This document shows, piece by piece, positions 1,637 to 9,840 of a stretch of 11,068 nt of DNA. Within the stretch, counting starts at the first letter, position 1, and every line of letters begins with the position of its first letter. This DNA comes from a virus (Duplodnaviria > Heunggongvirae > Uroviricota > Caudoviricetes): the IMG/VR virus record IMGVR_UViG_2700989545_000014. One strand, given 5' to 3'. Below the pieces are notes generated by a model that saw nothing but the letters and a program-made list of their open reading frames with translations, was not told the DNA's origin and did no database searches. The position numbers and the translations under genes are program-made.

Positions 1637-2746
1637 TCACTCTGTTTCTGCTATCCATTCCGAGATTTTTGCCTCAAGCTCAAGCTGCGTGGTAAAGCCG
1701 CTGTTATCGATGGTGTGCTCGGCTTTTGCAATAATCCAGTCCTGATTATCAATCTCGCTTTTAAATCCTGTTACCGTGCCATGCATTTCGGGGTAGAGTT
1801 CTGCACGACCACATGCCAGCGTGATGGAGAATGATGCGGCTCCGCGTTGTAGCTGCTGCCACTTTGCCGCCGCTGCGCGTCTTGCTGCCTGCTCGTTCTG
1901 ATAAGTCTTGCGTAACACAAACACATTGCCTTCCGCGCCTTCCATATAATCACCTTCACGGCTGCTGCTTTTCTCCTTTTTGGGTTTTGGCGGTTTACGG
2001 CGTTTCACGCTGACTTTTTTCTTTTTCCCGTAATTAAGATCAAGCCAGTAGGCGCGTACCCCCGTATACGCCTCGCGGTCAGCAATACGGAACTGATGGC
2101 GATCGCCGCTGCTGCGTGTAATGGCGAACGAGGGCAACGGCTGGCCCTGTGCGTTCACGCCACCACCTGGCATGATGAATAACAGATTGCCGCTTTTTAC
2201 CGTGGTGATTGCGCCCAGCATTTCCGCCATGCGCGTAAGGAAGGACATATCGCTTTCTTCGGTCTGGTCGGCGTGGTCGATTTCGATATCCATCAGCATT
2301 TCGCTGATTTGCGGTTTCAGACCGTACCGATGAGCGATGGCAGATACCACGCGCTCAACGGTCACATCATGCCAGGACACCTCACGTTTAACGTTAAATT
2401 CATCCCGAAAATCTGCGCTTCTGGCTGAAACAGTCAGCCTGTCCGGCGGTCCTTCGTGAGCGATTTCATCAACAATGTAAGTGCCTTTTTCTGTCAGCGG
2501 TTCTCCTTTCCAGCCAATGAGAACCGTCAGGCGCGCGCCCCGTGGCGGTAGCTGCAACTGACCATCCGCATCATCCAGCGTGATGGTGAGCTGGTCCGCC
2601 TCAAATCCCCGGTTGTCGGTCAGTGACAGGCTCATCAGGCGCTCTGCCACGCCTGACAGCGTTTTACCCTCCGCGAGAATATCAAAATCCGGCATTTTCA
2701 CGGGGTCTGTGCCCTGACTGAGCAATTGCATGGTGGTATCGGTCAT
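1637..2746 (-). CDS. D: P2 gpD-family tail protein (phage late control gene D protein)
   Basis: The 369-aa product contains SLSLTDNRGFEADQL...LTVLIGWKGEPL, typical of the gpD family. The start is placed at the ATG at 2746 (MTDTTMQLL), which is preceded by GGGAGGG; the track ORF extends to 2878 without a ribosome-binding site. Confidence 0.85.
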   Translation of the reverse strand: MTDTTMQLLSQGTDPVKMPDFDILAEGKTLSGVAERLMSLSLTDNRGFEADQLTITLDDADGQLQLPPRGARLTVLIGWKGEPLTEKGTYIVDEIAHEGPPDRLTVSARSADFRDEFNVKREVSWHDVTVERVVSAIAHRYGLKPQISEMLMDIEIDHADQTEESDMSFLTRMAEMLGAITTVKSGNLLFIMPGGGVNAQGQPLPSFAITRSSGDRHQFRIADREAYTGVRAYWLDLNYGKKKKVSVKRRKPPKPKKEKSSSREGDYMEGAEGNVFVLRKTYQNEQAARRAAAAKWQQLQRGAASFSITLACGRAELYPEMHGTVTGFKSEIDNQDWIIAKAEHTIDNSGFTTQLELEAKISEWIAETE

Positions 2747-2903
2747 CTGTTCCCTCCCTGTGCGGCATGGTCGCATGTGCGTGCGGAGGGGGTTACTGCT
2801 TTTTGTTGTCGCCGTGGCGGGAGAACGGCGCAGGGGTGAGATTACGCACGTGGTGGGTGATGATTGTTGCCGAATCATTTAACGGATACAAGGGGCTGAA
2901 GCT
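2747..2903. promoter_or_regulatory. Divergent intergenic region between D-ogr and the FI operon (expected late promoters)
   Basis: This 157-bp non-coding spacer lies between two divergent starts. By analogy with P2 the FI operon should have an Ogr-dependent promoter here, but no clean TGT-N12-ACA dyad was found by eye. Confidence 0.3.
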
Positions 2904-4088
2904 ATGAGTGAAACTCGTTTTCATGGTGCCCGTGTTACGGAAAATACCGACCTGGTAACAGCGATTAACGATGTTGATTCCAGCGTTATCGGTATCGTGG
3001 CAACGGCGGATGATGCGGACGCGAAGCTGTTCCCGCTGAATAAGCCCACACTGCTGACCCGCGTCAATGACGTGCTGGGAAAATGCGGGACAACGGGGAC
3101 GCTTTATCGTGCGCTTAAGGCCATCGCAGACCAGGTGAGCACAAAGGTGATCGTCGTTCGCGTGGCTGAACACAAAGAAGAAGACGGAAAGACGCAGGAT
3201 CAACTGGTTATCGGTGGTTCTGAGGATGACGGCAGCTATACGGGGATGTATGCGCTGCTTGTTGCAGAGCAGGATGAAAGCATCGGATACCGTCCGCGTA
3301 TTCTGGCCGCGCCGGAGCTGGACACGGAGGCTGTAACAAAATCCCTGTGCGTGATTGCAGGTAAACTGCGCGCGTTTGTGTATGCCTCATGTCACGGCTG
3401 TAACACGATGGCTGAGGCGATTACCTACCGCCAGAAATTCAACGAACGTGAGGTGATGCTCTTATGGCCGGACTTCATCGCCTACAACCCGAAAAGTGGC
3501 AAAAACGAAACGTTCCCCGCGCCTGCTTATGCGTGCGGCCTTCGTGCGTACATTGACCATGAGCAGGGCTGGCACAAATCGCTGTCCAACGTTCCGGTTA
3601 AAAATGTGCTGGGAATGTCCAGGCATGTGTTCTGGTCGTTGCAGGCCGAAGACAGCGATGCCAATAGCCTCAACAACAAAGAAATCACGACCATTATTCG
3701 TCGCAACGGGTTCCGCTTCTGGGGCAACCGCACACCGGAAACGAACGCCTACATCTTTGAGGTGTATACCCGAACCGCACAGGTGCTGGCTGATTCAATT
3801 GCGGAAGCGCAGTTTGAAACCATCGACAGTCCACTGACACCTGCGAATGTGAAGGATGTTATCAGCGCCATCAGGGCAAAACTGGATTCGCTGGTTACTG
3901 CCGGGAAACTGATTGGTGCGGAGTGCTGGTATGACGTGGTGGATAACGGCACCACGAATTTACGTCAGGGACGTGTGCGTATTCGCTACAAATATACGCC
4001 TGTTCCCCCGCTGGAAGACATGGAGCTTTACCAGACGTTTACTGATGAATTCTTTGGTCCCGCATTTGCGGTGCTGGGAGGTGCCTGA
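2904..4088 (+). CDS. FI: Contractile tail sheath protein (P2 gpFI family)
   Basis: The 394-aa product aligns by eye with P2 FI along its length (FPLNKP, KLRAF, AYRQ-F, WPDF, EQGWHK-LSNV, IRRNGFRFWGNRT, YTRTAQV, YTPVPPLE). AAGGGG lies 7 nt upstream of the ATG. Confidence 0.9.
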   Translation: MSETRFHGARVTENTDLVTAINDVDSSVIGIVATADDADAKLFPLNKPTLLTRVNDVLGKCGTTGTLYRALKAIADQVSTKVIVVRVAEHKEEDGKTQDQLVIGGSEDDGSYTGMYALLVAEQDESIGYRPRILAAPELDTEAVTKSLCVIAGKLRAFVYASCHGCNTMAEAITYRQKFNEREVMLLWPDFIAYNPKSGKNETFPAPAYACGLRAYIDHEQGWHKSLSNVPVKNVLGMSRHVFWSLQAEDSDANSLNNKEITTIIRRNGFRFWGNRTPETNAYIFEVYTRTAQVLADSIAEAQFETIDSPLTPANVKDVISAIRAKLDSLVTAGKLIGAECWYDVVDNGTTNLRQGRVRIRYKYTPVPPLEDMELYQTFTDEFFGPAFAVLGGA

Positions 4089-4600
4089 TGGCTGTACCAA
4101 AACATCTTCGCTTTTTTACGTTGTTTGTGGATGGTGAAAACGAAGTGGGTAAAGTGACATCCGTCACGCCGCCCAAACTGACGCGCAAAACCGACAGCTA
4201 TCGTGGTGGTGGCATGATGGGGGCGGTAAGTATTGATCTCGGTCTGGACGACTCCGCGCTTGATGCGAGTTTTGTCATGGGGGGAGCTGTTCGTGCGCTG
4301 TTCCTTAAATATGGCGGCACGATTGACGGCACGCTGCTGCGTTTTGCGGGTGAATACTACACCGATGCAGAAAGCGATCTGTATGAAATCGAGATGCGCG
4401 GGCGTGTGACGGAAATTGATATGGGGGAAGCCAAACAGGGCGAAGCCACATCACACACTTACGCTGTCAAAAACACCTACTACAAGCTGAGCGTTAACGA
4501 TCGCCCGCTGTGGGAAATCGACCTGTTGAACCACATCTACCGGAAGGACGGCAAGGACATTGTGCCTGACCGTATCCGTTCCGCGCTTGGGCTTGGCTGA
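4088..4600 (+). CDS. FII: Tail tube protein (P2 gpFII family)
   Basis: The 170-aa product carries VTPPKLTRKTDSYRGGGM, the LGLDD motif and MRGR-EID-GE-KQGE, matching P2 FII. Its start overlaps the FI stop (ATGA), indicating translational coupling. Confidence 0.9.
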   Translation: MAVPKHLRFFTLFVDGENEVGKVTSVTPPKLTRKTDSYRGGGMMGAVSIDLGLDDSALDASFVMGGAVRALFLKYGGTIDGTLLRFAGEYYTDAESDLYEIEMRGRVTEIDMGEAKQGEATSHTYAVKNTYYKLSVNDRPLWEIDLLNHIYRKDGKDIVPDRIRSALGLG

Positions 4601-4612
4601 TAAGTAATATGC

Positions 4613-4633
4613 AGGCGGCGCAGTGCGTCGCCT
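4613..4633 (+). other. Intergenic GC-rich hairpin between tube and chaperone genes (possible attenuator or RNA-processing site)
   Basis: An 8-bp stem aggcggcg / cgtcgcct with a 5-nt loop, followed by only two T residues, so it is not a strong terminator. Confidence 0.25.
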
Positions 4634-4655
4634 TTGACTGAAAAGGAGACAACTG

Positions 4656-5030
4656 ATGAAAGACATCGATACTGAAACCCGGAATAACACCGTGGCGGAT
4701 GATGTGACGGCAGGTGAGGATATGGCTGTCGAACGTGGCGTAAAACTGACCCGACCAATTGAGCGTGGTGGCGAAAAAATCACGTATGTGGAGATCACCG
4801 GGGCTATTGAGCAGGCTGGATCCCTGCGTGGTCTGTCGCTGTCTGATGTGCTGAATCTGAAAGCGGATACCATGTTTACGCTGTTGCCTCGCGTGACCTC
4901 GCCACGACTGGATGAAGTGATGATTAAAAAAATGTCGTCACGCGATTTTATTCAGTTGTGCGCAGTGGCTGTAAATTTTATGAGCGAGCCAGACTCTGGC
5001 GCGAAGAGCGTGCAGGAGACGGCAGCGTAA
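4656..5030 (+). CDS. E: Tail assembly chaperone gpE
   Basis: The 124-aa ORF has AAGGAG 7 nt upstream and sits between the tube and tape-measure genes, where P2 and lambda (G/GT) carry the chaperone pair. A slippery heptamer lies near its 3' end. Confidence 0.8.
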   Translation: MKDIDTETRNNTVADDVTAGEDMAVERGVKLTRPIERGGEKITYVEITGAIEQAGSLRGLSLSDVLNLKADTMFTLLPRVTSPRLDEVMIKKMSSRDFIQLCAVAVNFMSEPDSGAKSVQETAA

Positions 5031-5194
5031 TCACTCTGGTGTGCTTTGAGCACATCGAAGATCTGGTGGCGGATATTGCCGCCATTTTTAACTGGTCGCC
5101 CGCCGAAATCTTCATGATGACGCCCGGCGAAGTGGTTAGCTGGCGTGAGCGGGCGGCACTTCGCAGCGGGAATGCAGATAATGAAGACTCTTGA
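4656..5194 (+). CDS. E+E': gpE+E' chaperone fusion produced by programmed -1 ribosomal frameshift
   Basis: The -1 frame (track ORF 4958..5194) overlaps the end of E. A canonical X_XXY_YYZ heptamer A_AAT_TTT lies at 4973-4979 in the E zero frame, and slipping there continues as ...CKFYERA... in the E' frame. The arrangement is conserved in contractile-tail phages. Confidence 0.6.
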
Positions 5195-7988
5195 TATCCG
5201 GGTCGCTTTCAGCGCCGTTGACAGGCTGACCCGGCCTGCCGAAAACGCCCGCCGCCTGATGGGGCAGTTTGGTGACTCCATCCAGCGAACGCAGGGGGCG
5301 ATCAAAAATCTCGAGCGTCAGGCGCGTTCATTTGAGCGCGCCCGTGACGCTGTCAGTAAAGCGGATGCTGGCATCGTGAAAGCACGACGCCAGCTTAACG
5401 CCCTTAATCAGTTACAACGCACGGGTACAGTGCTCAGCGAAAAACAACAAAAGCTGATGCAGCAGTTAAGCACCCGGCTTGAACGCCTGAATGAATCGCG
5501 CACACGGGAAATTCAGAAAATGCGGGAGCTTGGCGGAGAGCTGAAACGCCACGGCATTTCCCTGACAGGCAGCGATAACACCATCCAGCAGGCCATCAGA
5601 CGCACCGAACAGTACAACAACCAGCTTGAACGCGAACGGCAGGCGCTTGCGCGTGTAACGCGGGCGCGTGAGCGGTATTCGCGCGCGCAGGAAACCGCGG
5701 GAAAACTGAAAACAGGTGGTGCGCTGGCAATTGGTGCTGCAGCGGCTGGCGGCTATGCCGCCGGGCGTTTTTTGCAGCCTGCGATCGGGTTCGGCAAAGA
5801 GATGTCCCGCGTTCAGGCACTGACGCGAATCGACAAAAACAGCCCGCAGTTTAAGGCGCTGCGTGAGCAGGCGTTAAAACTTGGTTCTGAAACACAGTTT
5901 ACTGCGAGTGATGCCGCCAGTGGGCAGAGCTTTCTGGCAATGGCTGGTTTTACTCCGCAGGCCATTCAGGCCGCATTGCCCGGTGTTCTTAATATGGCGC
6001 TGGCAGGTGGCGTCGAACTCGGCGAGACGGCTGATATAGGCTCCAATATCCTCACACAGTTCAACCTGACAGCCGATCAAATGGACCGGGTTGGCGATAC
6101 GCTGACAGCAGCATTCACCCGGACCAATACTGATTTACGCGCGCTGGGCGAAACCATGAAGTATACCGGTCCGGTTGCCGCAAAACTTGGTATCAGTCTT
6201 GAAGAAGCGGCGGCCATGGCCGGGATGCTTGCCAATAATGGTCTTCGCGGAAGCGATGCTGGTACGGCCATGCGCGCAAGTCTGTCCCGCCTTGCATCAC
6301 CGCCAAAAGCTGCGGCTGATGCACTGAAAGAGCTGGGGGTGTCAGTTGCTGACGCCAGAGGCAAAATGCGCCCGATGGAGGATGTGCTGCTTGATCTCTA
6401 TAAGGCGACACAAAAATACGGACAGGTGGACCAGGTCTCCTTCTTCAAGGACATCGCCGGAGAAGAGGCGTTCGTTGGTTTGCAGACGCTTGTTGCGGCG
6501 GCTGGTTCAGGAGAACTGCAAAAACTGACCAGAGAATTGCAGGGGGCAAGGGGAGAGGCCGATCGCGTTGCAAAAGTAATGGCCGATAATCTTGATGGAG
6601 ACCTGAAAAATCTCGACAGCGCATGGGAAGGTCTTCGTATTCGCATCAGTGATCTGGTTGACGGTCCGCTGCGTTCTGTCACGCAGTGGCTCACGCGGGT
6701 GCTTGAAAAAATCACCTCGCTGGCGCAGGCCCATCCGGTACTGACGCGCCAGCTACTGATAGCAGGCGGTGCGTTGCTGGCAATGACTGCAACGATTGGC
6801 TCGTTGTCGCTGGTTATTGGGGTGCTTTACGGGAAGCTGGCCACCTTGCGTCTTGGTTTCGACATTCTTACCCGGTCAATGAATGTCATCAGGGTGTTGC
6901 CTGCGCTGTGGGGAATGGTGACGGGTTCTGTTTCTTTGCTGGGTGGCGCTATCGGGGCGCTGTTCAGTCCGGTTGGTCTTATCGTGGCTGCGCTTGCCGG
7001 AGCTGCCGTTCTTATCTGGAAATACTGGGATCCCATCAGGGCATTTTTTGCCGGGGTGTTCAGCGGGATTATGGAAAGGCTGACCCCGTTGCGTGAAACC
7101 TTTGAACGGTTTGGCCCTGTTTTTGACGCAATCGGAAGCGGGATCAGCCTGGTGTTTAACTGGTTTAAATCGCTGTTGTCACCGATGGAGTCCAGCAAGG
7201 AAACGCTGGATAAATGCACCAGTGCTGGCGAGGTATTCGGTAACGTTCTTGGCGGTGCGTTACAACTTGTTCTGACACCTGCAAAAATGCTACTGGATAC
7301 GCTGGCGTGGATACTTGAAAAACTTGGTGTCCTTCCGGATGAAGCGGAAAGGGCGCGCAAGAAAATCGAAGACGCACAGCGTGCGGCCATTCTTCAGGAC
7401 AAGGTTGCCTTGCTTCAGGGGGACCTGGCGAAAATCAATCCGCCGAAGCCTGTGGAAAATGGCAATGGCACCGGAGGTGATAAACCCAAAGACAACAAAC
7501 CGCTCACAGACAGCAATACCGGGACGCTACGCAGACTCAGCAAAATTGCTGATAACACAGGTAAGCTGGTTGATGAGACGAAAAAACGCATTGGCCCCGG
7601 CGATATTGTCTTTAAGAACCTGCCCCGCGCACTTGCTGTTCGTGGGGAGTGGCAGGAGCGGAAGATTGCGCAGGTCAGTAAGCCTGCCCCCGCAATTAAT
7701 ATCACACCCGTGGTCTCGGCTCCGCTGCCTCCGGCGCTGGTCCCTGTTGTTGCGGCCAGCTCCCGCCCGGTGGCGGAGGCCATACGATCGCCAGTGGCAT
7801 CAGTTCCTGCAACTTCCCGTAACCGGGAGCCTGCTGTCTCCGGATTTTGCGGTGAAATTCATGTTCATCTGCATAACGTTGTTACGCAGAATCCCCGCGA
7901 ACTGGCGAAACTGGTCGGTGAAATGGTCAGGGCAGAGATGGAACGGCGCGCCCGTGCCGGACGTGGCAGTTTTTACGATAAAGATTGA
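5181..7988 (+). CDS. T: Tail tape measure protein (P2 gpT family), about 935 aa
   Basis: A long ORF directly after the chaperone pair. It has a coiled-coil-like, Q/R/E-rich N-terminal third, internal hydrophobic segments and a Pro/Ala-rich C-terminal region. The start is placed at the ATG at 5181 (GGGA 9 nt upstream); the track frame opens at GTG 5145 inside E'. Confidence 0.85.
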   Translation: MKTLDIRVAFSAVDRLTRPAENARRLMGQFGDSIQRTQGAIKNLERQARSFERARDAVSKADAGIVKARRQLNALNQLQRTGTVLSEKQQKLMQQLSTRLERLNESRTREIQKMRELGGELKRHGISLTGSDNTIQQAIRRTEQYNNQLERERQALARVTRARERYSRAQETAGKLKTGGALAIGAAAAGGYAAGRFLQPAIGFGKEMSRVQALTRIDKNSPQFKALREQALKLGSETQFTASDAASGQSFLAMAGFTPQAIQAALPGVLNMALAGGVELGETADIGSNILTQFNLTADQMDRVGDTLTAAFTRTNTDLRALGETMKYTGPVAAKLGISLEEAAAMAGMLANNGLRGSDAGTAMRASLSRLASPPKAAADALKELGVSVADARGKMRPMEDVLLDLYKATQKYGQVDQVSFFKDIAGEEAFVGLQTLVAAAGSGELQKLTRELQGARGEADRVAKVMADNLDGDLKNLDSAWEGLRIRISDLVDGPLRSVTQWLTRVLEKITSLAQAHPVLTRQLLIAGGALLAMTATIGSLSLVIGVLYGKLATLRLGFDILTRSMNVIRVLPALWGMVTGSVSLLGGAIGALFSPVGLIVAALAGAAVLIWKYWDPIRAFFAGVFSGIMERLTPLRETFERFGPVFDAIGSGISLVFNWFKSLLSPMESSKETLDKCTSAGEVFGNVLGGALQLVLTPAKMLLDTLAWILEKLGVLPDEAERARKKIEDAQRAAILQDKVALLQGDLAKINPPKPVENGNGTGGDKPKDNKPLTDSNTGTLRRLSKIADNTGKLVDETKKRIGPGDIVFKNLPRALAVRGEWQERKIAQVSKPAPAINITPVVSAPLPPALVPVVAASSRPVAEAIRSPVASVPATSRNREPAVSGFCGEIHVHLHNVVTQNPRELAKLVGEMVRAEMERRARAGRGSFYDKD

Positions 7989-7994
7989 GGAGTC

Positions 7995-8489
7995 ATGGTC
8001 ATGATGATGATCTACGGCATGTTTGTTTTTGAGCTGCGCACATTGCCGCATCAGCAGTTACAGCAAAACAAAAGCTGGCGGCATGTGAAAAATGAACGCG
8101 TTAACCGTTCAGCAAGCTGGCAGTATATCGGTGCAGGTGATGATCGCATTGTGCTTTCCGGCGTGCTTTATCCTGAAATTACAGGTGGCGAAGTGTCGCT
8201 TTCATTGCTGACCACGCAGGCATATACAGGACGGCCCTGGCCTCTGATTGATGGTGTCGGGCAGATTTACGGCATGTATGTACTGACTGAAACGAATACG
8301 ACCCGTTCCGAGTTTGATCGCTACGGTAAGGCGAAAAAGATAGAATTTTCACTGACTCTTGAACGCTGTGATGAGGATTTGCGGGAGCGCCTGCAATCCT
8401 CATCGTTCAGCGATATGTTGTCCGGCTTCAAAGATAAGGTGACATCATCCCTTAATAGCGCGGCCAGCTCAGTTAAGGGGCTGCTCTGA
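7995..8489 (+). CDS. U: Tail protein gpU (P2 U family)
   Basis: The N-terminus ...MMMIYGMFVFELRTLPHQQLQ... and the LSG-L-PE-TGG, WPL-DG-G and SEF motifs match P2 gpU (MMMVLGLFVF...). Shine-Dalgarno spacing favours the ATG at 8001 over 7995. Confidence 0.85.
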   Translation: MVMMMIYGMFVFELRTLPHQQLQQNKSWRHVKNERVNRSASWQYIGAGDDRIVLSGVLYPEITGGEVSLSLLTTQAYTGRPWPLIDGVGQIYGMYVLTETNTTRSEFDRYGKAKKIEFSLTLERCDEDLRERLQSSSFSDMLSGFKDKVTSSLNSAASSVKGLL

Positions 8490-8594: not shown

Positions 8595-8645
8595 CTCTTA
8601 ACCTTATAACATGTGTGGTCTGAAATAATAATTAAGGAGATTATC

Positions 8646-9218
8646 GTGCTGTCTTACCTAATGGCAATTCACTTTGTTTTATTTGGGAACTCTACTAATT
8701 TAAAAAACTTCTGGAAACATGAAGTAATTCGGCGGAAACGTATGGATATCTGGAGGCTTTTAAGAGAGAAAAAGCAGCGTAACAGGAATTTCCTTTTCTG
8801 GTGGCGGTTGGCTAACGAAATGTATATTAATGGTAATAAATTACATAAGAAAGCAGCCAAGAAGTTAAACAGTAAAATAATTAACAAATTTGGTTGCGAA
8901 ATTGGATTGGGCGCAAATATTGGAAAAGGGTTAACAATTCCCCATCATGCTGGAATTGTTGTTCATTTTGCTGTTGATGCTGGTGAAAATCTGGTGTTAC
9001 GACAGAATACGACCATTGGACAGATAGATGGTGACATACCTGGTTCAAGAGTAAAAATTGGTAGCAACGTTGATATCGGAGCTAATTGTTGCATCATTGG
9101 ATTATCCCGTAAAATTGGGGATAATGTAAAAATAGGTGCAATGTCTTTTATAAATAAAGATATACCATCGAACTGCACATATATAACTAAAAAGAGCGGT
9201 GCTGTATTGTATAAATAG
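8646..9218 (+). CDS. Hexapeptide-repeat (left-handed beta-helix) O-acetyltransferase of the CysE/WcaB/NodL type, prophage cargo (moron) gene
   Basis: The C-terminal two-thirds shows imperfect hexapeptide repeats (GCEIGLGANIGKGLTIPHHAGIVV...VKIGSNVDIGANCCIIG...IGDNVKIGAMSFI) resembling serine and polysaccharide O-acetyltransferases. The start is placed at GTG 8646, 6 nt after AAGGAG; the track frame opens at 8613. The gene is far more AT-rich than the flanking phage genes. Confidence 0.7.
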   Translation: MLSYLMAIHFVLFGNSTNLKNFWKHEVIRRKRMDIWRLLREKKQRNRNFLFWWRLANEMYINGNKLHKKAAKKLNSKIINKFGCEIGLGANIGKGLTIPHHAGIVVHFAVDAGENLVLRQNTTIGQIDGDIPGSRVKIGSNVDIGANCCIIGLSRKIGDNVKIGAMSFINKDIPSNCTYITKKSGAVLYK

Positions 9219-9226
9219 AGTACATA

Positions 9227-9263
9227 AAGCCATCGATATTTCTATCGATGGCTTTTTCTTTTT
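9227..9263. terminator. Strong rho-independent terminator after the cargo gene
   Basis: A 12-bp stem aagccatcgata / tatcgatggctt with loop tttc is followed by tttttcttttt on the plus strand. The tfa stop codon lies at the edge of this element. Confidence 0.7.
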
Positions 9264-9840
9264 ATTGTGGGGCGACTGGCCACTCAATATCTGCTGCTAC
9301 TGTTGTATCAACACGATGCAACAATACTCGATATGTCTTCCATGCAGCCAGTAACGATGTCTCTTCCTCCGTCGCAATATCTAAATCTATAGCATCCTGA
9401 AGTGGTGCAATATGCTCACTGGCTACCTGCATCAGGCTGTTTTTTGTTTCTTCCGCCTCCCTTATCCGAAATAGTTTTTCTGCTTCTGCATCTTTCACCC
9501 AGGATGTGCCGTTCCACTTCTGATACTCTCCATACGGCGACAACCAGGTAACATTTTCCGGTAACGGACCGAGTTCAGAAATAAATAACGAGTCCCCTGA
9601 TGCCACGTCATAAACCGTTTTACCCCGATGGTCTTCAACGAGATGCCACGATGCCTCATCACTGTTGAAAACGGCCACGAAGCCAGCCGGAATATCTGGC
9701 GGGGCAATATCGGTACTGTTTGCAGGCAGACCTGTATGAGGTGAAATGTATGCATCACCTTCACCAATAAACTCATTGGTTCCGGTCAGTAGATTATAAA
9801 TTTTTATGGTCCGTGATTGTTCACTCATTCTGAATGTCAT
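9262..9840 (-). CDS. tfa: Tail fibre assembly protein (lambda Tfa / P2 gpG family)
   Basis: The 192-aa product ([18 protein letters not shown]...[20 protein letters not shown]...) closely resembles, from memory, the TfaR/TfaQ-type chaperones of E. coli lambdoid prophages. Its ATG overlaps the stop of the upstream fibre segment (TAATG). Confidence 0.9.

What the first reader, a model, noticed from the sequence alone, without database searches (positions are those of the whole stretch)
4973..4979. Slippery heptamer A_AAT_TTT for the E/E' -1 programmed frameshift
The only X_XXY_YYZ heptamer in the E/E' overlap lies at 4973-4979 in the correct phase, and reading -1 from it continues directly into the E' frame. 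The frameshift mechanism itself is conserved and expected; the exact site differs from P2 (T_TTT_TTG) and is an easy annotation to miss, since automated callers usually report E and a spurious separate E' ORF.
Basis: partly seen in the sequence, partly recalled or inferred. Interest (0 to 1): 0.35.

Follow-up and report, generated by a model that had tools for sequence, protein, structure and literature searches.

The report
Variant frameshift site in phage tail chaperone
This is the expected ribosomal frameshift site of a P2-like prophage's tail-assembly chaperone gene, ordinary in kind, but this common E. coli lineage has lost the TTTTTTG slip sequence that almost all relatives keep and is left with only the adjacent AAATTTT.

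Summary
AAATTTT lies at 4973-4979 in X_XXY_YYZ phase with gene E (4656-5030). It is the only in-phase heptamer in the E/E' overlap (4928-5030), and the -1 frame runs from it to 5194.

The window is a Xuanwuvirus (P88-like, Peduoviridae) tail module. The fused product aligns end to end with P2 gpE+E' and carries the Pfam GpE domain. The Phe codon of the heptamer aligns with the Phe codon of the family's T_TTT_TTG site.

P88 has A_AAT_TTT_TTG, two overlapping heptamers. This lineage has TTG changed to ATG at 4980, so only A_AAT_TTT remains. None of 80 species-level relatives has this state, but about 600 complete E. coli genomes and a plaque-forming phage (PhiSM) carry this lineage.

Substitutions against P88 switch from 0-frame to -1-frame wobble positions at the heptamer. 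E' has no ribosome-binding site of its own.

Published E. coli reporter data put A_AAU_UUU at background without a stimulator and at 11% with a pseudoknot. A lineage-specific hairpin 8 nt downstream (4988-5023, -18.9 kcal/mol) is a weakly supported candidate stimulator.

Verdict: a real, unannotated slip-site variant of a known recoding system, of low to moderate interest.

The parts
4088..4600 (+). Tail tube gene (FII homologue), the upstream neighbour that defines the chaperone locus
   Evidence: Pfam PF04985 Phage_tube, E=2e-45; annotated as major tail tube protein in near-identical records
4641..4649 (+). Shine-Dalgarno sequence of E (AAAAGGAGA), 6 nt before the ATG
   Evidence: -8.7 kcal/mol duplex with the 16S 3' end
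4656..5030 (+). Gene E, the 124-aa tail assembly chaperone made by 0-frame translation
   Evidence: ORF; phrog_103 E=1e-36; PF10109 Phage_TAC_7 over aa 29-109 at 20.6 bits, below the 25-bit cut-off; this exact protein is on at least 1000 contigs
4928..5030 (+). Overlap in which both the 0 frame (E) and the -1 frame (E') are open
   Evidence: -1 frame stop TAA at 4925-4927, E stop at 5028-5030
4973..4979 (+). Slippery heptamer A_AAT_TTT (P-site Asn AAU, A-site Phe UUU), the proposed -1 frameshift site
   Evidence: Only in-phase XXXYYYZ in the overlap. Its Phe codon aligns with the Phe of T_TTT_TTG in P2, 186-like, SEN4, Klebsiella, Yersinia and Burkholderia relatives. Invariant in 79 IMG/VR contigs chosen without reference to it.
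4980..4982 (+). ATG codon replacing the family's TTG; the T-to-A change at 4980 removes the T_TTT_TTG heptamer
   Evidence: P88, Chuche and 500465-2 have AAATTTTTTG and the window clade has AAATTTTATG. TTTTTT(G/A/C) is present in 76 of 80 species-level loci.
4979..5194 (+). E' segment read in the -1 frame after the slip (71 codons plus TGA); the fused E+E' is 179 aa
   Evidence: Pfam PF06528 Phage_P2_GpE at aa 138-173 of the fusion, 45 bits against a 23-bit cut-off. phrog_1756 E=2e-38 over aa 104-177. BLASTP to P2 E+E' E=1e-28, end to end. Substitutions against P88 fall on -1-frame third positions.
4988..5023 (+). Candidate stimulatory stem-loop, 8 nt after the heptamer (12 pairs with internal loops, loop AAGAG)
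   Evidence: MFE -18.9 kcal/mol for 4983-5027, z=-1.9, 11 of 200 shuffles fold as well. Retained at -20.7 in the diverged window-type contig L091. Absent from P88-type sequences (-8.1, z=+1.4). No family-wide consensus structure.
4926..4932 (+). A7 run at the start of the overlap, considered as an alternative slip site
   Evidence: Out of X_XXY_YYZ phase. In P88-type sequences and three window-type contigs a -1-frame TGA lies between it and E'.
5181..7988 (+). Tape-measure gene T; its start overlaps the end of E'
   Evidence: PF10145, E=2e-56; RefSeq annotation of a 99.8% identical prophage

Best explanation
Genes E and E' encode the tail assembly chaperone pair of a P88-like (Xuanwuvirus) P2-family prophage.

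Most ribosomes translate E (4656-5030) to its stop and make the 124-aa chaperone. A minority slip back one nucleotide at 4973-4979, when tRNA-Asn (AAU) occupies the P site and tRNA-Phe (UUU) the A site. The two tRNAs re-pair with AAA and UUU. The next codon read is then UAU at 4979-4981, and translation continues in the -1 frame to 5194. The result is a 179-aa E+E' fusion with the junction ...AVAVNF|YERARLW...

By analogy with P2 gpE/gpE+E' and lambda gpG/gpGT, both proteins would bind the tape-measure protein, and the E' domain would recruit tube subunits. Neither protein would end up in the virion.

The site is homologous to P2's T_TTT_TTG but moved one codon upstream, because a T-to-A change at 4980 removed the U6 run.

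Shown here: the sequence anatomy, the homology, the switch of coding constraint at the heptamer, and the lack of an independent start for E'. Inferred: that slippage occurs, that it is a tandem two-tRNA slip, its efficiency, and any contribution from the downstream hairpin at 4988-5023.
For: Locus identity
- Sheath, tube, E, E', tape measure and U are in order.
- The region is 99% identical to Xuanwuvirus P884B11 and to Citrobacter phage PhiSM.

Homology
- The fusion built at the heptamer carries PF06528 and phrog_103 plus phrog_1756.
- It aligns with P2 E+E' across the junction, E=1e-28.

Position
- In 13 phage loci and 80 genome loci the in-phase slip motif sits on the same Phe codon.
- The P2 record marks its -1 shift there.

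Coding constraint, window against P88
- Differences fall at 0-frame codon positions 1/2/3 as 1/2/13 in the 90 nt upstream of the heptamer.
- They fall as 2/6/4 in the overlap downstream, and as 1/8/2 in the E'-only part. That is the third-position pattern of the -1 frame.
- Amino-acid identity switches from the 0 frame (14/16 against 6/16) to the -1 frame (12/16 against 8/16) at the heptamer.

No independent start
- GTG 4958 and GTG 5039 have no Shine-Dalgarno sequence (+0.3 and -3.0 kcal/mol, against -8.7 for E).

The motif is competent
- In E. coli reporters AAAUUUU gives 0.07% frameshifting without a stimulator, 0.36% with IS911 stimulators and 11.4% with the IS3 pseudoknot. UUUUUUG gives 0.12%, 0.25% and 0.77% (Sharma 2014, PMC4066793, Table S3).

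The variant works in nature
- PhiSM has the identical site and is a fully functional plaque-forming temperate phage (PMC6456863).
- 604 E. coli records match the region at 95% identity or more.
Against: - There is no direct evidence of frameshifting here: no reporter, mass-spectrometry or ribosome-profiling data.
- An in-phase heptamer in a 34-codon overlap arises by chance about 10% of the time.
- Without a stimulator A_AAU_UUU is at background in reporters.
- The only candidate stimulator is weakly supported (z about -1.9). It is absent from the P88 type and from one apparently intact P88-backbone prophage that also has ATG (L055).
- No conserved structure exists across the family, and there is no upstream SD-like element.
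- A P-site-only slip of tRNA-Phe on U_UUU gives the same protein, so sequence cannot separate the two mechanisms.
- The essentiality of E+E' is taken from P2 (record note; Christie 2002 could not be read).
Confidence: 0.8

Rival explanations
1. Same place and same product, but a single-tRNA slip. tRNA-Phe in the P site moves from UUU (4977-4979) to UUU (4976-4978) while the A site (AUG) is empty, and UAU is then decoded. The upstream A_AA would play no role.
For: U_UUU is one of the three most shift-prone tetramers in E. coli (PMC4066793). Across the family the run of U's is the conserved element, while the preceding X triplet varies (G, C, A or U). In P2-type sites the same Phe codon sits in the P site.
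Against: AUG is not a slow or rare codon that would leave the A site empty. Tetramers alone were barely above background without a pseudoknot. Both lineages that lost the U6 run, the window clade and the Reipivirus type, keep a full in-phase heptamer (A_AAT_TTT and C_CCT_TTC) rather than only a tetramer.
Confidence: 0.15
2. The frame change happens elsewhere in the overlap. One option is the A7 run at 4926-4932, through ribosomal slippage or insertion of an extra A by RNA polymerase. The other is the in-phase U_UUU at 4946-4949 (GAT TTT ATT).
For: In the window the -1 frame is open from 4928, so both routes would reach E'. A-runs are known slippage sites.
Against: A7 is out of X_XXY_YYZ phase. 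All P88-type sequences, and three window-type contigs with CGC changed to CGT, have a -1-frame TGA at the position of 4943-4945, which blocks the A7 route. The 4946-4949 tetramer is CTTT in P88. Both routes would replace the conserved end of the chaperone domain (MSSRDFIQLCAVAVNF), where substitutions follow the 0 frame (1/2/13). Neither aligns with the family's site.
Confidence: 0.04
3. E' is made as a separate small protein by its own initiation, as annotated (GTG 5039, 51 aa; or GTG 4958, 78 aa), with no frameshift.
For: RefSeq and GenBank records annotate a separate 'GpE family phage tail protein'.
Against: Neither GTG has a Shine-Dalgarno sequence. The -1-frame sequence upstream of 5039 (ER..LW.EER.GDG) is conserved in relatives and shows the -1-frame wobble pattern from the heptamer onward. 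In P2 the product is the E+E' fusion. The fusion aligns with P2 E+E' through the junction.
Confidence: 0.04
4. Loss of TTTTTTG crippled the frameshift, and E' is decaying or dispensable in this lineage.
For: The family's near-universal motif is gone. A_AAU_UUU alone is at background in reporters.
Against: E' is intact and under purifying selection in its own frame (1/8/2 pattern). It is 100% conserved in at least 80 IMG/VR contigs. A phage with this exact site forms plaques at high titre. The diverged L091 keeps the ATG, an intact E' and the hairpin.
Confidence: 0.03

Closest known systems
Bacteriophage P2 gpE / gpE+E' programmed -1 frameshift (Christie et al. 2002; annotated in NC_001895)
   Same: Same position in the genome, between the tube and tape-measure genes. 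The proteins are homologous (33% identity over the whole fusion, E=1e-28; PF06528). The shift is -1 and occurs at the same aligned Phe codon at the end of the chaperone domain.
   Different: P2 slips on T_TTT_TTG with Phe in the P site and Leu in the A site. Here the heptamer is A_AAT_TTT with Asn in the P site and Phe in the A site, one codon upstream. E is 124 aa against 91, and the fusion 179 aa against 142. P2 has an SD-like UAAGGUGGU 3 nt upstream of its site, and the window has none. P2 has no downstream hairpin (PMC3091744), and the window has a candidate one. D and ogr are inverted upstream of FI rather than following U.
Escherichia phage P88 and relatives (Xuanwuvirus / Gemsvirus; NC_026014, PP925824, NC_049343)
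   Same: Same genus-level module, about 84% nucleotide identity. A_AAT_TTT is at the identical position.
   Different: P88-type sequences read A_AAT_TTT_TTG, so they carry both the upstream heptamer and the family T_TTT_TTG. The 45 nt downstream fold weakly (-8.1 kcal/mol, z=+1.4) against -18.9 here. The frameshift is unannotated in these records as well.
Klebsiella Reipivirus-type E/E' (NC_049450; K. spallanzanii and K. michiganensis loci)
   Same: This is the only other lineage in the survey that lost the U6 run and kept only the upstream overlapping heptamer at the same position (C_CCT_TTC followed by TTG).
   Different: A different heptamer (Pro/Phe), produced by TTT changing to TTC rather than TTG to ATG. 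C_CCU_UUC is the most stimulator-responsive of these motifs in reporters (23% with the IS3 pseudoknot).
Phage lambda gpG/gpGT and the conserved tail-assembly-chaperone frameshift of long-tailed phages (Xu, Hendrix, Duda 2004)
   Same: Same logic: two products with a shared N-terminus at a fixed ratio, encoded between the major tail and tape-measure genes, and needed for tail assembly but absent from virions (PMC5009743).
   Different: No detectable sequence homology was tested or claimed here. Lambda uses G_GGA_AAG (my recollection), and the review gives a G:GT ratio of about 30:1. P2-type efficiency is reported as 2-3 fold higher.
E. coli dnaX and IS911/IS3 -1 frameshift signals
   Same: The proposed architecture of an X_XXY_YYZ heptamer with a 3' stem-loop a few nucleotides downstream matches these bacterial signals. 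The IS911 and IS3 stimulators are the ones used to measure A_AAU_UUU.
   Different: Those use A_AAA_AAG-type Lys motifs, and dnaX also uses an upstream SD-like element (my knowledge). No SD-like element is present here, and the hairpin is unproven.

Membership tests
P2 gpE/gpE+E' tail assembly chaperone frameshift (Peduoviridae) | Two overlapping ORFs located between the tail tube gene and the tape-measure gene | tested here: met
   FII 4088-4600, E 4656-5030, -1 ORF to 5194, T from 5181
P2 gpE/gpE+E' tail assembly chaperone frameshift (Peduoviridae) | The upstream ORF is a gpE-type chaperone | tested here: met
   phrog_103 E=1e-36; BLASTP to P2 E+E' covers the E part. Pfam PF10109 matches aa 29-109 but at 20.6 bits, below its 25-bit cut-off. 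NCBIfam gave no hit.
P2 gpE/gpE+E' tail assembly chaperone frameshift (Peduoviridae) | The downstream -1 frame segment carries the GpE (E') domain | tested here: met
   PF06528, 45 bits against a 23-bit cut-off, aa 138-173 of the fusion; phrog_1756 E=2e-38
P2 gpE/gpE+E' tail assembly chaperone frameshift (Peduoviridae) | The second ORF is in the -1 frame and has no translation start signal of its own | tested here: met
   Frame arithmetic; no SD before GTG 4958 or GTG 5039
P2 gpE/gpE+E' tail assembly chaperone frameshift (Peduoviridae) | An in-phase slippery heptamer in the overlap, at the end of the chaperone domain | tested here: met
   A_AAT_TTT at 4973-4979, aligned to the family's site
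P2 gpE/gpE+E' tail assembly chaperone frameshift (Peduoviridae) | The slippery sequence is T_TTT_TTG (the P2 consensus) | tested here: not met
   The window reads TTT ATG. TTTTTTG occurs in 68 of 80 surveyed loci, TTTTTTA or TTTTTTC in 8, and A_AAT_TTT alone in none. This is a difference in the signal, not in the proteins.
P2 gpE/gpE+E' tail assembly chaperone frameshift (Peduoviridae) | Both E and E+E' are produced, and both are essential for tail assembly | not testable with these tools
   Indirect only: the -1 frame shows purifying selection, and PhiSM with the same site is viable
Canonical bacterial -1 PRF signal (heptamer plus 3' stimulatory structure) | An X_XXY_YYZ heptamer allowing re-pairing of both tRNAs | tested here: met
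   A_AAU_UUU; belongs to the H_HHU_UUY class listed among the best E. coli motifs (PMC4066793)
Canonical bacterial -1 PRF signal (heptamer plus 3' stimulatory structure) | A stable stem-loop or pseudoknot about 5-9 nt downstream, conserved among relatives | tested here: inconclusive
   Hairpin 4988-5023, 8-nt spacer, -18.9 kcal/mol, z=-1.9, kept in L091. Absent in the P88 type and in L055. The family consensus fold is -0.94 kcal/mol. The 60-nt and 108-nt folds are not significant.
Canonical bacterial -1 PRF signal (heptamer plus 3' stimulatory structure) | An upstream SD-like stimulator (dnaX type) | tested here: not met
   The best anti-SD duplex in the 30 nt upstream is -1.5 kcal/mol

The most novel reading that the evidence does not exclude
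The window lineage did not simply tolerate loss of the family's U6G slip site. It re-engineered the signal. A_AAU_UUU is inert on its own but about 15 times more responsive to a strong stimulator than U_UUU_UUG in E. coli reporters. In this reading it is paired with a lineage-specific stem-loop 8 nt downstream (4988-5023) that evolved inside a doubly coding overlap. That would be compensatory co-evolution of slippery sequence and stimulator in a family otherwise thought to frameshift without any downstream structure.
Probability: 0.25. Interest if true: 0.45.

Novelty: new variant of a known kind. Interest (0 to 1): 0.3.

Why it matters
For annotation: about a quarter of complete E. coli genomes (1374 of 5426) carry a P88-like E/E' pair. 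Every record inspected splits it into E plus a short orphan 'GpE family' ORF. The 179-aa fusion is absent from a collection of about 15 billion proteins. A rule keyed on TTTTTTG would miss the roughly 600 genomes of this lineage.

For biology: this is a natural experiment on a recoding signal. Two common, closely related haplotypes differ in whether the near-universal U6 run is present and in whether a downstream hairpin can form. Recombinants and a single-site intermediate also exist in nature (L294, L055). The viable phage PhiSM grows on E. coli K-12, so the effect of slip sequence and hairpin on the E:E+E' ratio and on tail assembly can be tested directly. Because only four U's remain, function of this variant would also argue that the family's shift is ribosomal and not transcriptional slippage on the T-run.

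Tried and rejected
- Family-wide stimulatory structure. RNAalifold on seven diverse long-E relatives gave -0.94 kcal/mol with no meaningful covariation. This agrees with the literature, which reports no hairpin for P2, KS5, KS14 and KL3.
- Longer folds of the window. The 108-nt fold has z=-1.23 and the 60-nt fold z=-0.08, neither significant. Only the 45-nt hairpin stands out (z about -1.9), and that comes from several window sizes tried without correction for multiple tests.
- Upstream SD-like stimulator. None in the window. One exists in P2, but only 3 nt upstream of its site.
- A7 run at 4926-4932 and U_UUU at 4946-4949 as alternative sites. Rejected on phase, on -1-frame stops in relatives, and on the 0-frame constraint pattern.
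- Independent initiation of E'. Rejected because there is no SD and the -1 frame is conserved upstream of the annotated start.
- Terminator-like hairpin at 5064-5084 plus T5 inside E'. It is not conserved in P88 or P2 and appears only where the peptide reads AAIF, so I treat it as a by-product of coding.
- The first IMG/VR scan was conditioned on GTAAATTTT, so it cannot show conservation of the heptamer. I repeated it with a protein-anchored scan. Those 79 contigs are nearly identical, so that conservation test is shallow.
- NCBIfam gave no hits.
- Christie et al. 2002 (PMC135442) is not held. P2 efficiency and essentiality are therefore cited second-hand.
- An exact look-up of three possible fusion proteins found none in public collections.

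Full report
**The observation.** The window reads AAATTTT at 4973-4979. Gene E is the ORF 4656-5030 (124 aa), preceded by a strong Shine-Dalgarno sequence, AAAAGGAGA, at 4641-4649. Its codons AAT (4974-4976) and TTT (4977-4979) put the heptamer in X_XXY_YYZ phase. The -1 frame is open from 4928, after TAA at 4925-4927, to TGA at 5192-5194. The overlap is therefore 4928-5030, and AAATTTT is the only in-phase XXXYYYZ in it and in all of E. Reading -1 from 4979 gives 71 codons (YERARLW...NADNEDS) and a 179-aa fusion. An in-phase heptamer in a 34-codon overlap is expected by chance in about 9-12% of cases. The motif alone therefore proves little.

**What the locus is.** The window carries sheath (2904-4088), tube (4088-4600), E, the -1 ORF, tape measure (5181-7988) and gpU (7995-8489). 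Region 4600-5250 is 99% identical to Xuanwuvirus P884B11 and to Citrobacter phage Shae_phiSM. It is about 84% identical to phage P88 and relatives, all Peduoviridae. A 99.8% identical E. coli prophage has D and ogr inverted upstream of the sheath gene and lies about 1.3 kb downstream of a tRNA-Leu gene.

The fusion built at the heptamer has the following matches:
- Pfam PF06528 (Phage_P2_GpE) at aa 138-173, 45 bits against a 23-bit cut-off.
- phrog_103 and phrog_1756, both annotated as tail proteins.
- P2 gpE+E' from end to end, through the junction, at 33% identity and E=1e-28.
- The chaperone domain PF10109 ends at aa 109, next to the slip codon Phe108. That hit is below Pfam's cut-off.

**Position of the slip site in the family.** In P2 (where the record marks the -1 shift), a 186-like phage, SEN4, and Klebsiella, Yersinia and Burkholderia relatives, the in-phase motif is T_TTT_TTG. 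Its Phe codon aligns with Phe108 of the window. P88, Chuche and 500465-2 read A_AAT_TTT_TTG, which is two overlapping in-phase heptamers. The window clade reads A_AAT_TTT ATG. A T-to-A change at 4980 (Leu to Met in E, Phe to Tyr in E') removed the second heptamer.

I surveyed 80 species-level genomic loci found through an E' protein profile, independent of the slip sequence:

| Motif at the slip position | Loci |
|---|---|
| TTTTTTG | 68 |
| TTTTTTA | 7 |
| TTTTTTC | 1 |
| C_CCT_TTC only (Klebsiella, Reipivirus type) | 2 |
| none (Symbiopectobacterium loci where the overlap contains no in-phase heptamer, probably degraded copies) | 2 |
| A_AAT_TTT only | 0 |

The window's state is therefore rare across the family.

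It is nevertheless common in E. coli. 1374 of 5426 complete genomes carry a P88-like E/E', and 604 records match the window at 95% identity or more. In IMG/VR about 45 window-type (ATG) and about 50 P88-type (TTG) contigs were recovered in a capped scan. In 79 contigs selected only by E' protein identity, the heptamer and the ATG are invariant, although these sequences are nearly identical.

**Evidence that translation changes frame at the heptamer.** I compared the window with P88.

| Region | Differences at 0-frame codon positions 1/2/3 | Reading |
|---|---|---|
| 90 nt upstream of the heptamer | 1/2/13 | wobble of the 0 frame |
| 48 nt of overlap downstream | 2/6/4 | mixed, leaning to the -1 frame |
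| E'-only region | 1/8/2 | wobble of the -1 frame |

Amino-acid identity is 14/16 (0 frame) against 6/16 (-1 frame) just upstream, and 8/16 against 12/16 just downstream. Within the overlap but upstream of the heptamer, the -1 frame is unconserved. It contains a stop in P88-type sequences and in three window-type contigs. The possible independent starts, GTG 4958 and the GTG 5039 used by RefSeq, have no Shine-Dalgarno sequence: +0.3 and -3.0 kcal/mol against -8.7 for E.

**Is A_AAU_UUU competent?** Sharma et al. 2014 (PMC4066793) measured all 64 heptamers in E. coli (Table S3).

| Motif | No stimulator | IS911 stimulators | IS3 pseudoknot |
|---|---|---|---|
| AAAUUUU | 0.070% | 0.355% | 11.4% |
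| UUUUUUG | 0.118% | 0.247% | 0.765% |
| CCCUUUC | 0.193% | 1.39% | 23.2% |

H_HHU_UUY motifs are listed among the best in E. coli. The retained heptamer is therefore a good slip sequence, but in that reporter context it depends strongly on a stimulator. P2-type frameshifting is reported as 2-3 fold more efficient than lambda's, which gives about 1 in 30 (PMC5009743). It is also reported to lack a downstream hairpin (PMC3091744). Reporter numbers therefore do not transfer simply to the native context.

**Stimulators.**
- There is no SD-like element within 30 nt upstream.
- Downstream, 4983-5027 folds into a stem-loop whose main stem spans 4988-5023, 8 nt after the heptamer. Its energy is -18.9 kcal/mol, with z=-1.9 and 11 of 200 shuffles folding at least as well.
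- The homologous P88-type sequence folds at only -8.1 kcal/mol (z=+1.4).
- A more diverged window-type contig (L091) keeps the ATG and folds at -20.7 kcal/mol. Two of its three substitutions strengthen the stem and one breaks a pair.
- Against a required role: one apparently intact P88-backbone prophage (L055) has ATG without the hairpin. ATG and the hairpin are linked in a single haplotype block, as the recombinant L294 shows, so they count as only one evolutionary event. Longer folds are not significant, and there is no family-wide consensus structure.
- I therefore treat the hairpin as a candidate only.

**Function in nature.** PhiSM of Citrobacter rodentium has the identical slip region (L001). 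It is described as a fully functional temperate phage that forms plaques on E. coli K-12 (PMC6456863). P88 is also plaque-forming (PMC5285337). If E+E' is essential as in P2 (record note), the ATG variant must still frameshift.

**Mechanism proposed.** Most ribosomes finish E. A minority slip -1 with tRNA-Asn on AAU, which re-pairs with AAA, and tRNA-Phe on UUU, which re-pairs with UUU. They then read UAU and continue to 5194, giving ...AVAVNF|YERARLW... A P-site-only slip of tRNA-Phe on U_UUU would give the same protein and cannot be excluded from sequence. With only four U's, transcriptional slippage is unlikely (inference). By analogy with P2 and lambda, E and E+E' would chaperone the tape measure and recruit tube protein. 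That function was not tested here.

**Annotation status and novelty.** None of the Xuanwuvirus, Gemsvirus or RefSeq records inspected joins the two ORFs. The three possible fusion sequences are absent from a collection of about 15 billion proteins, while the unfused E is on at least 1000 contigs. The P88 paper does not mention a frameshift. This is a known recoding system with an unannotated, unusual slip-site variant. It is ordinary in kind, modest in interest, and directly testable.

**Verdict.** I put about 0.8 on 4973-4979 being the frameshift site. I put about 0.25 on the more interesting reading, that a lineage-specific hairpin compensates for loss of the U6 run.

Noticed in passing
window 5118-5149 (+), PAM at 5115-5117: A 32-nt stretch inside E' is 100% identical to a spacer in the type I-E CRISPR array of E. 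coli GmM066 (NZ_CM183652.1; L297 1502-1533). In the window it is preceded by ATG, a permitted I-E PAM, so some E. coli carry immunity aimed at this phage lineage's E' region.
   Followed up: partly
window 9299-9497 (-): Full-length Rfam hit to RF02111 (IS009, a candidate small RNA), 177 bits against a 117-bit gathering score. It lies inside the tail-fibre-assembly ORF 9262-9840 (-).
   Followed up: no
window 8613-9218 (+): A hexapeptide-repeat acetyltransferase sits between gpU and the tail-fibre assembly gene. It is annotated as serine acetyltransferase in a 99.8% identical prophage. It looks like a moron (a non-phage cargo gene carried in a prophage), possibly O-antigen modifying.
   Followed up: no
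window 5064-5084 (+) plus T-run to 5089: A terminator-like hairpin (9-bp stem, then TTTTT) lies inside E', in the stretch that most ribosomes do not translate. It encodes VADIAAIF and is absent from P88 and P2 homologues, so it is probably a coding by-product.
   Followed up: partly
L009 (phage P2) about 1141-1149, just upstream of its TTTTTTG at 1153-1159: P2 and its close relatives have a strong SD-like UAAGGUGGU (-8.1 kcal/mol with the anti-SD) ending 3 nt before the slip heptamer. The window and P88 lack it (-1.5 to -2.2). I do not know whether it modulates P2 frameshifting.
   Followed up: no
window 1637-2878 (-), and the adjacent region by comparison with L296: The late control D gene, and in the matching prophage ogr and a hok/gef toxin gene, lie inverted upstream of the sheath gene. 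In P2 D follows U (FETUD order). The matching prophage lies about 1.3 kb downstream of a tRNA-Leu gene, after uvrC-pgsA.
   Followed up: no
L294 (E. coli C8), L055 and L091 (IMG/VR contigs): Natural intermediates exist. L294 has a mosaic E, with a window-type 5' half and a P88-type 3' half carrying TTG. L055 is a P88 backbone with ATG and no hairpin. L091 is a diverged window type that keeps ATG and a stronger hairpin.
   Followed up: partly
window 5768-5774 (+), inside the tape-measure gene T: An in-phase TTTTTTG, the P2-type slip motif, also occurs within T. It is one of 10 in-phase heptamers in the window's genes. No long -1 ORF was examined there.
   Followed up: no
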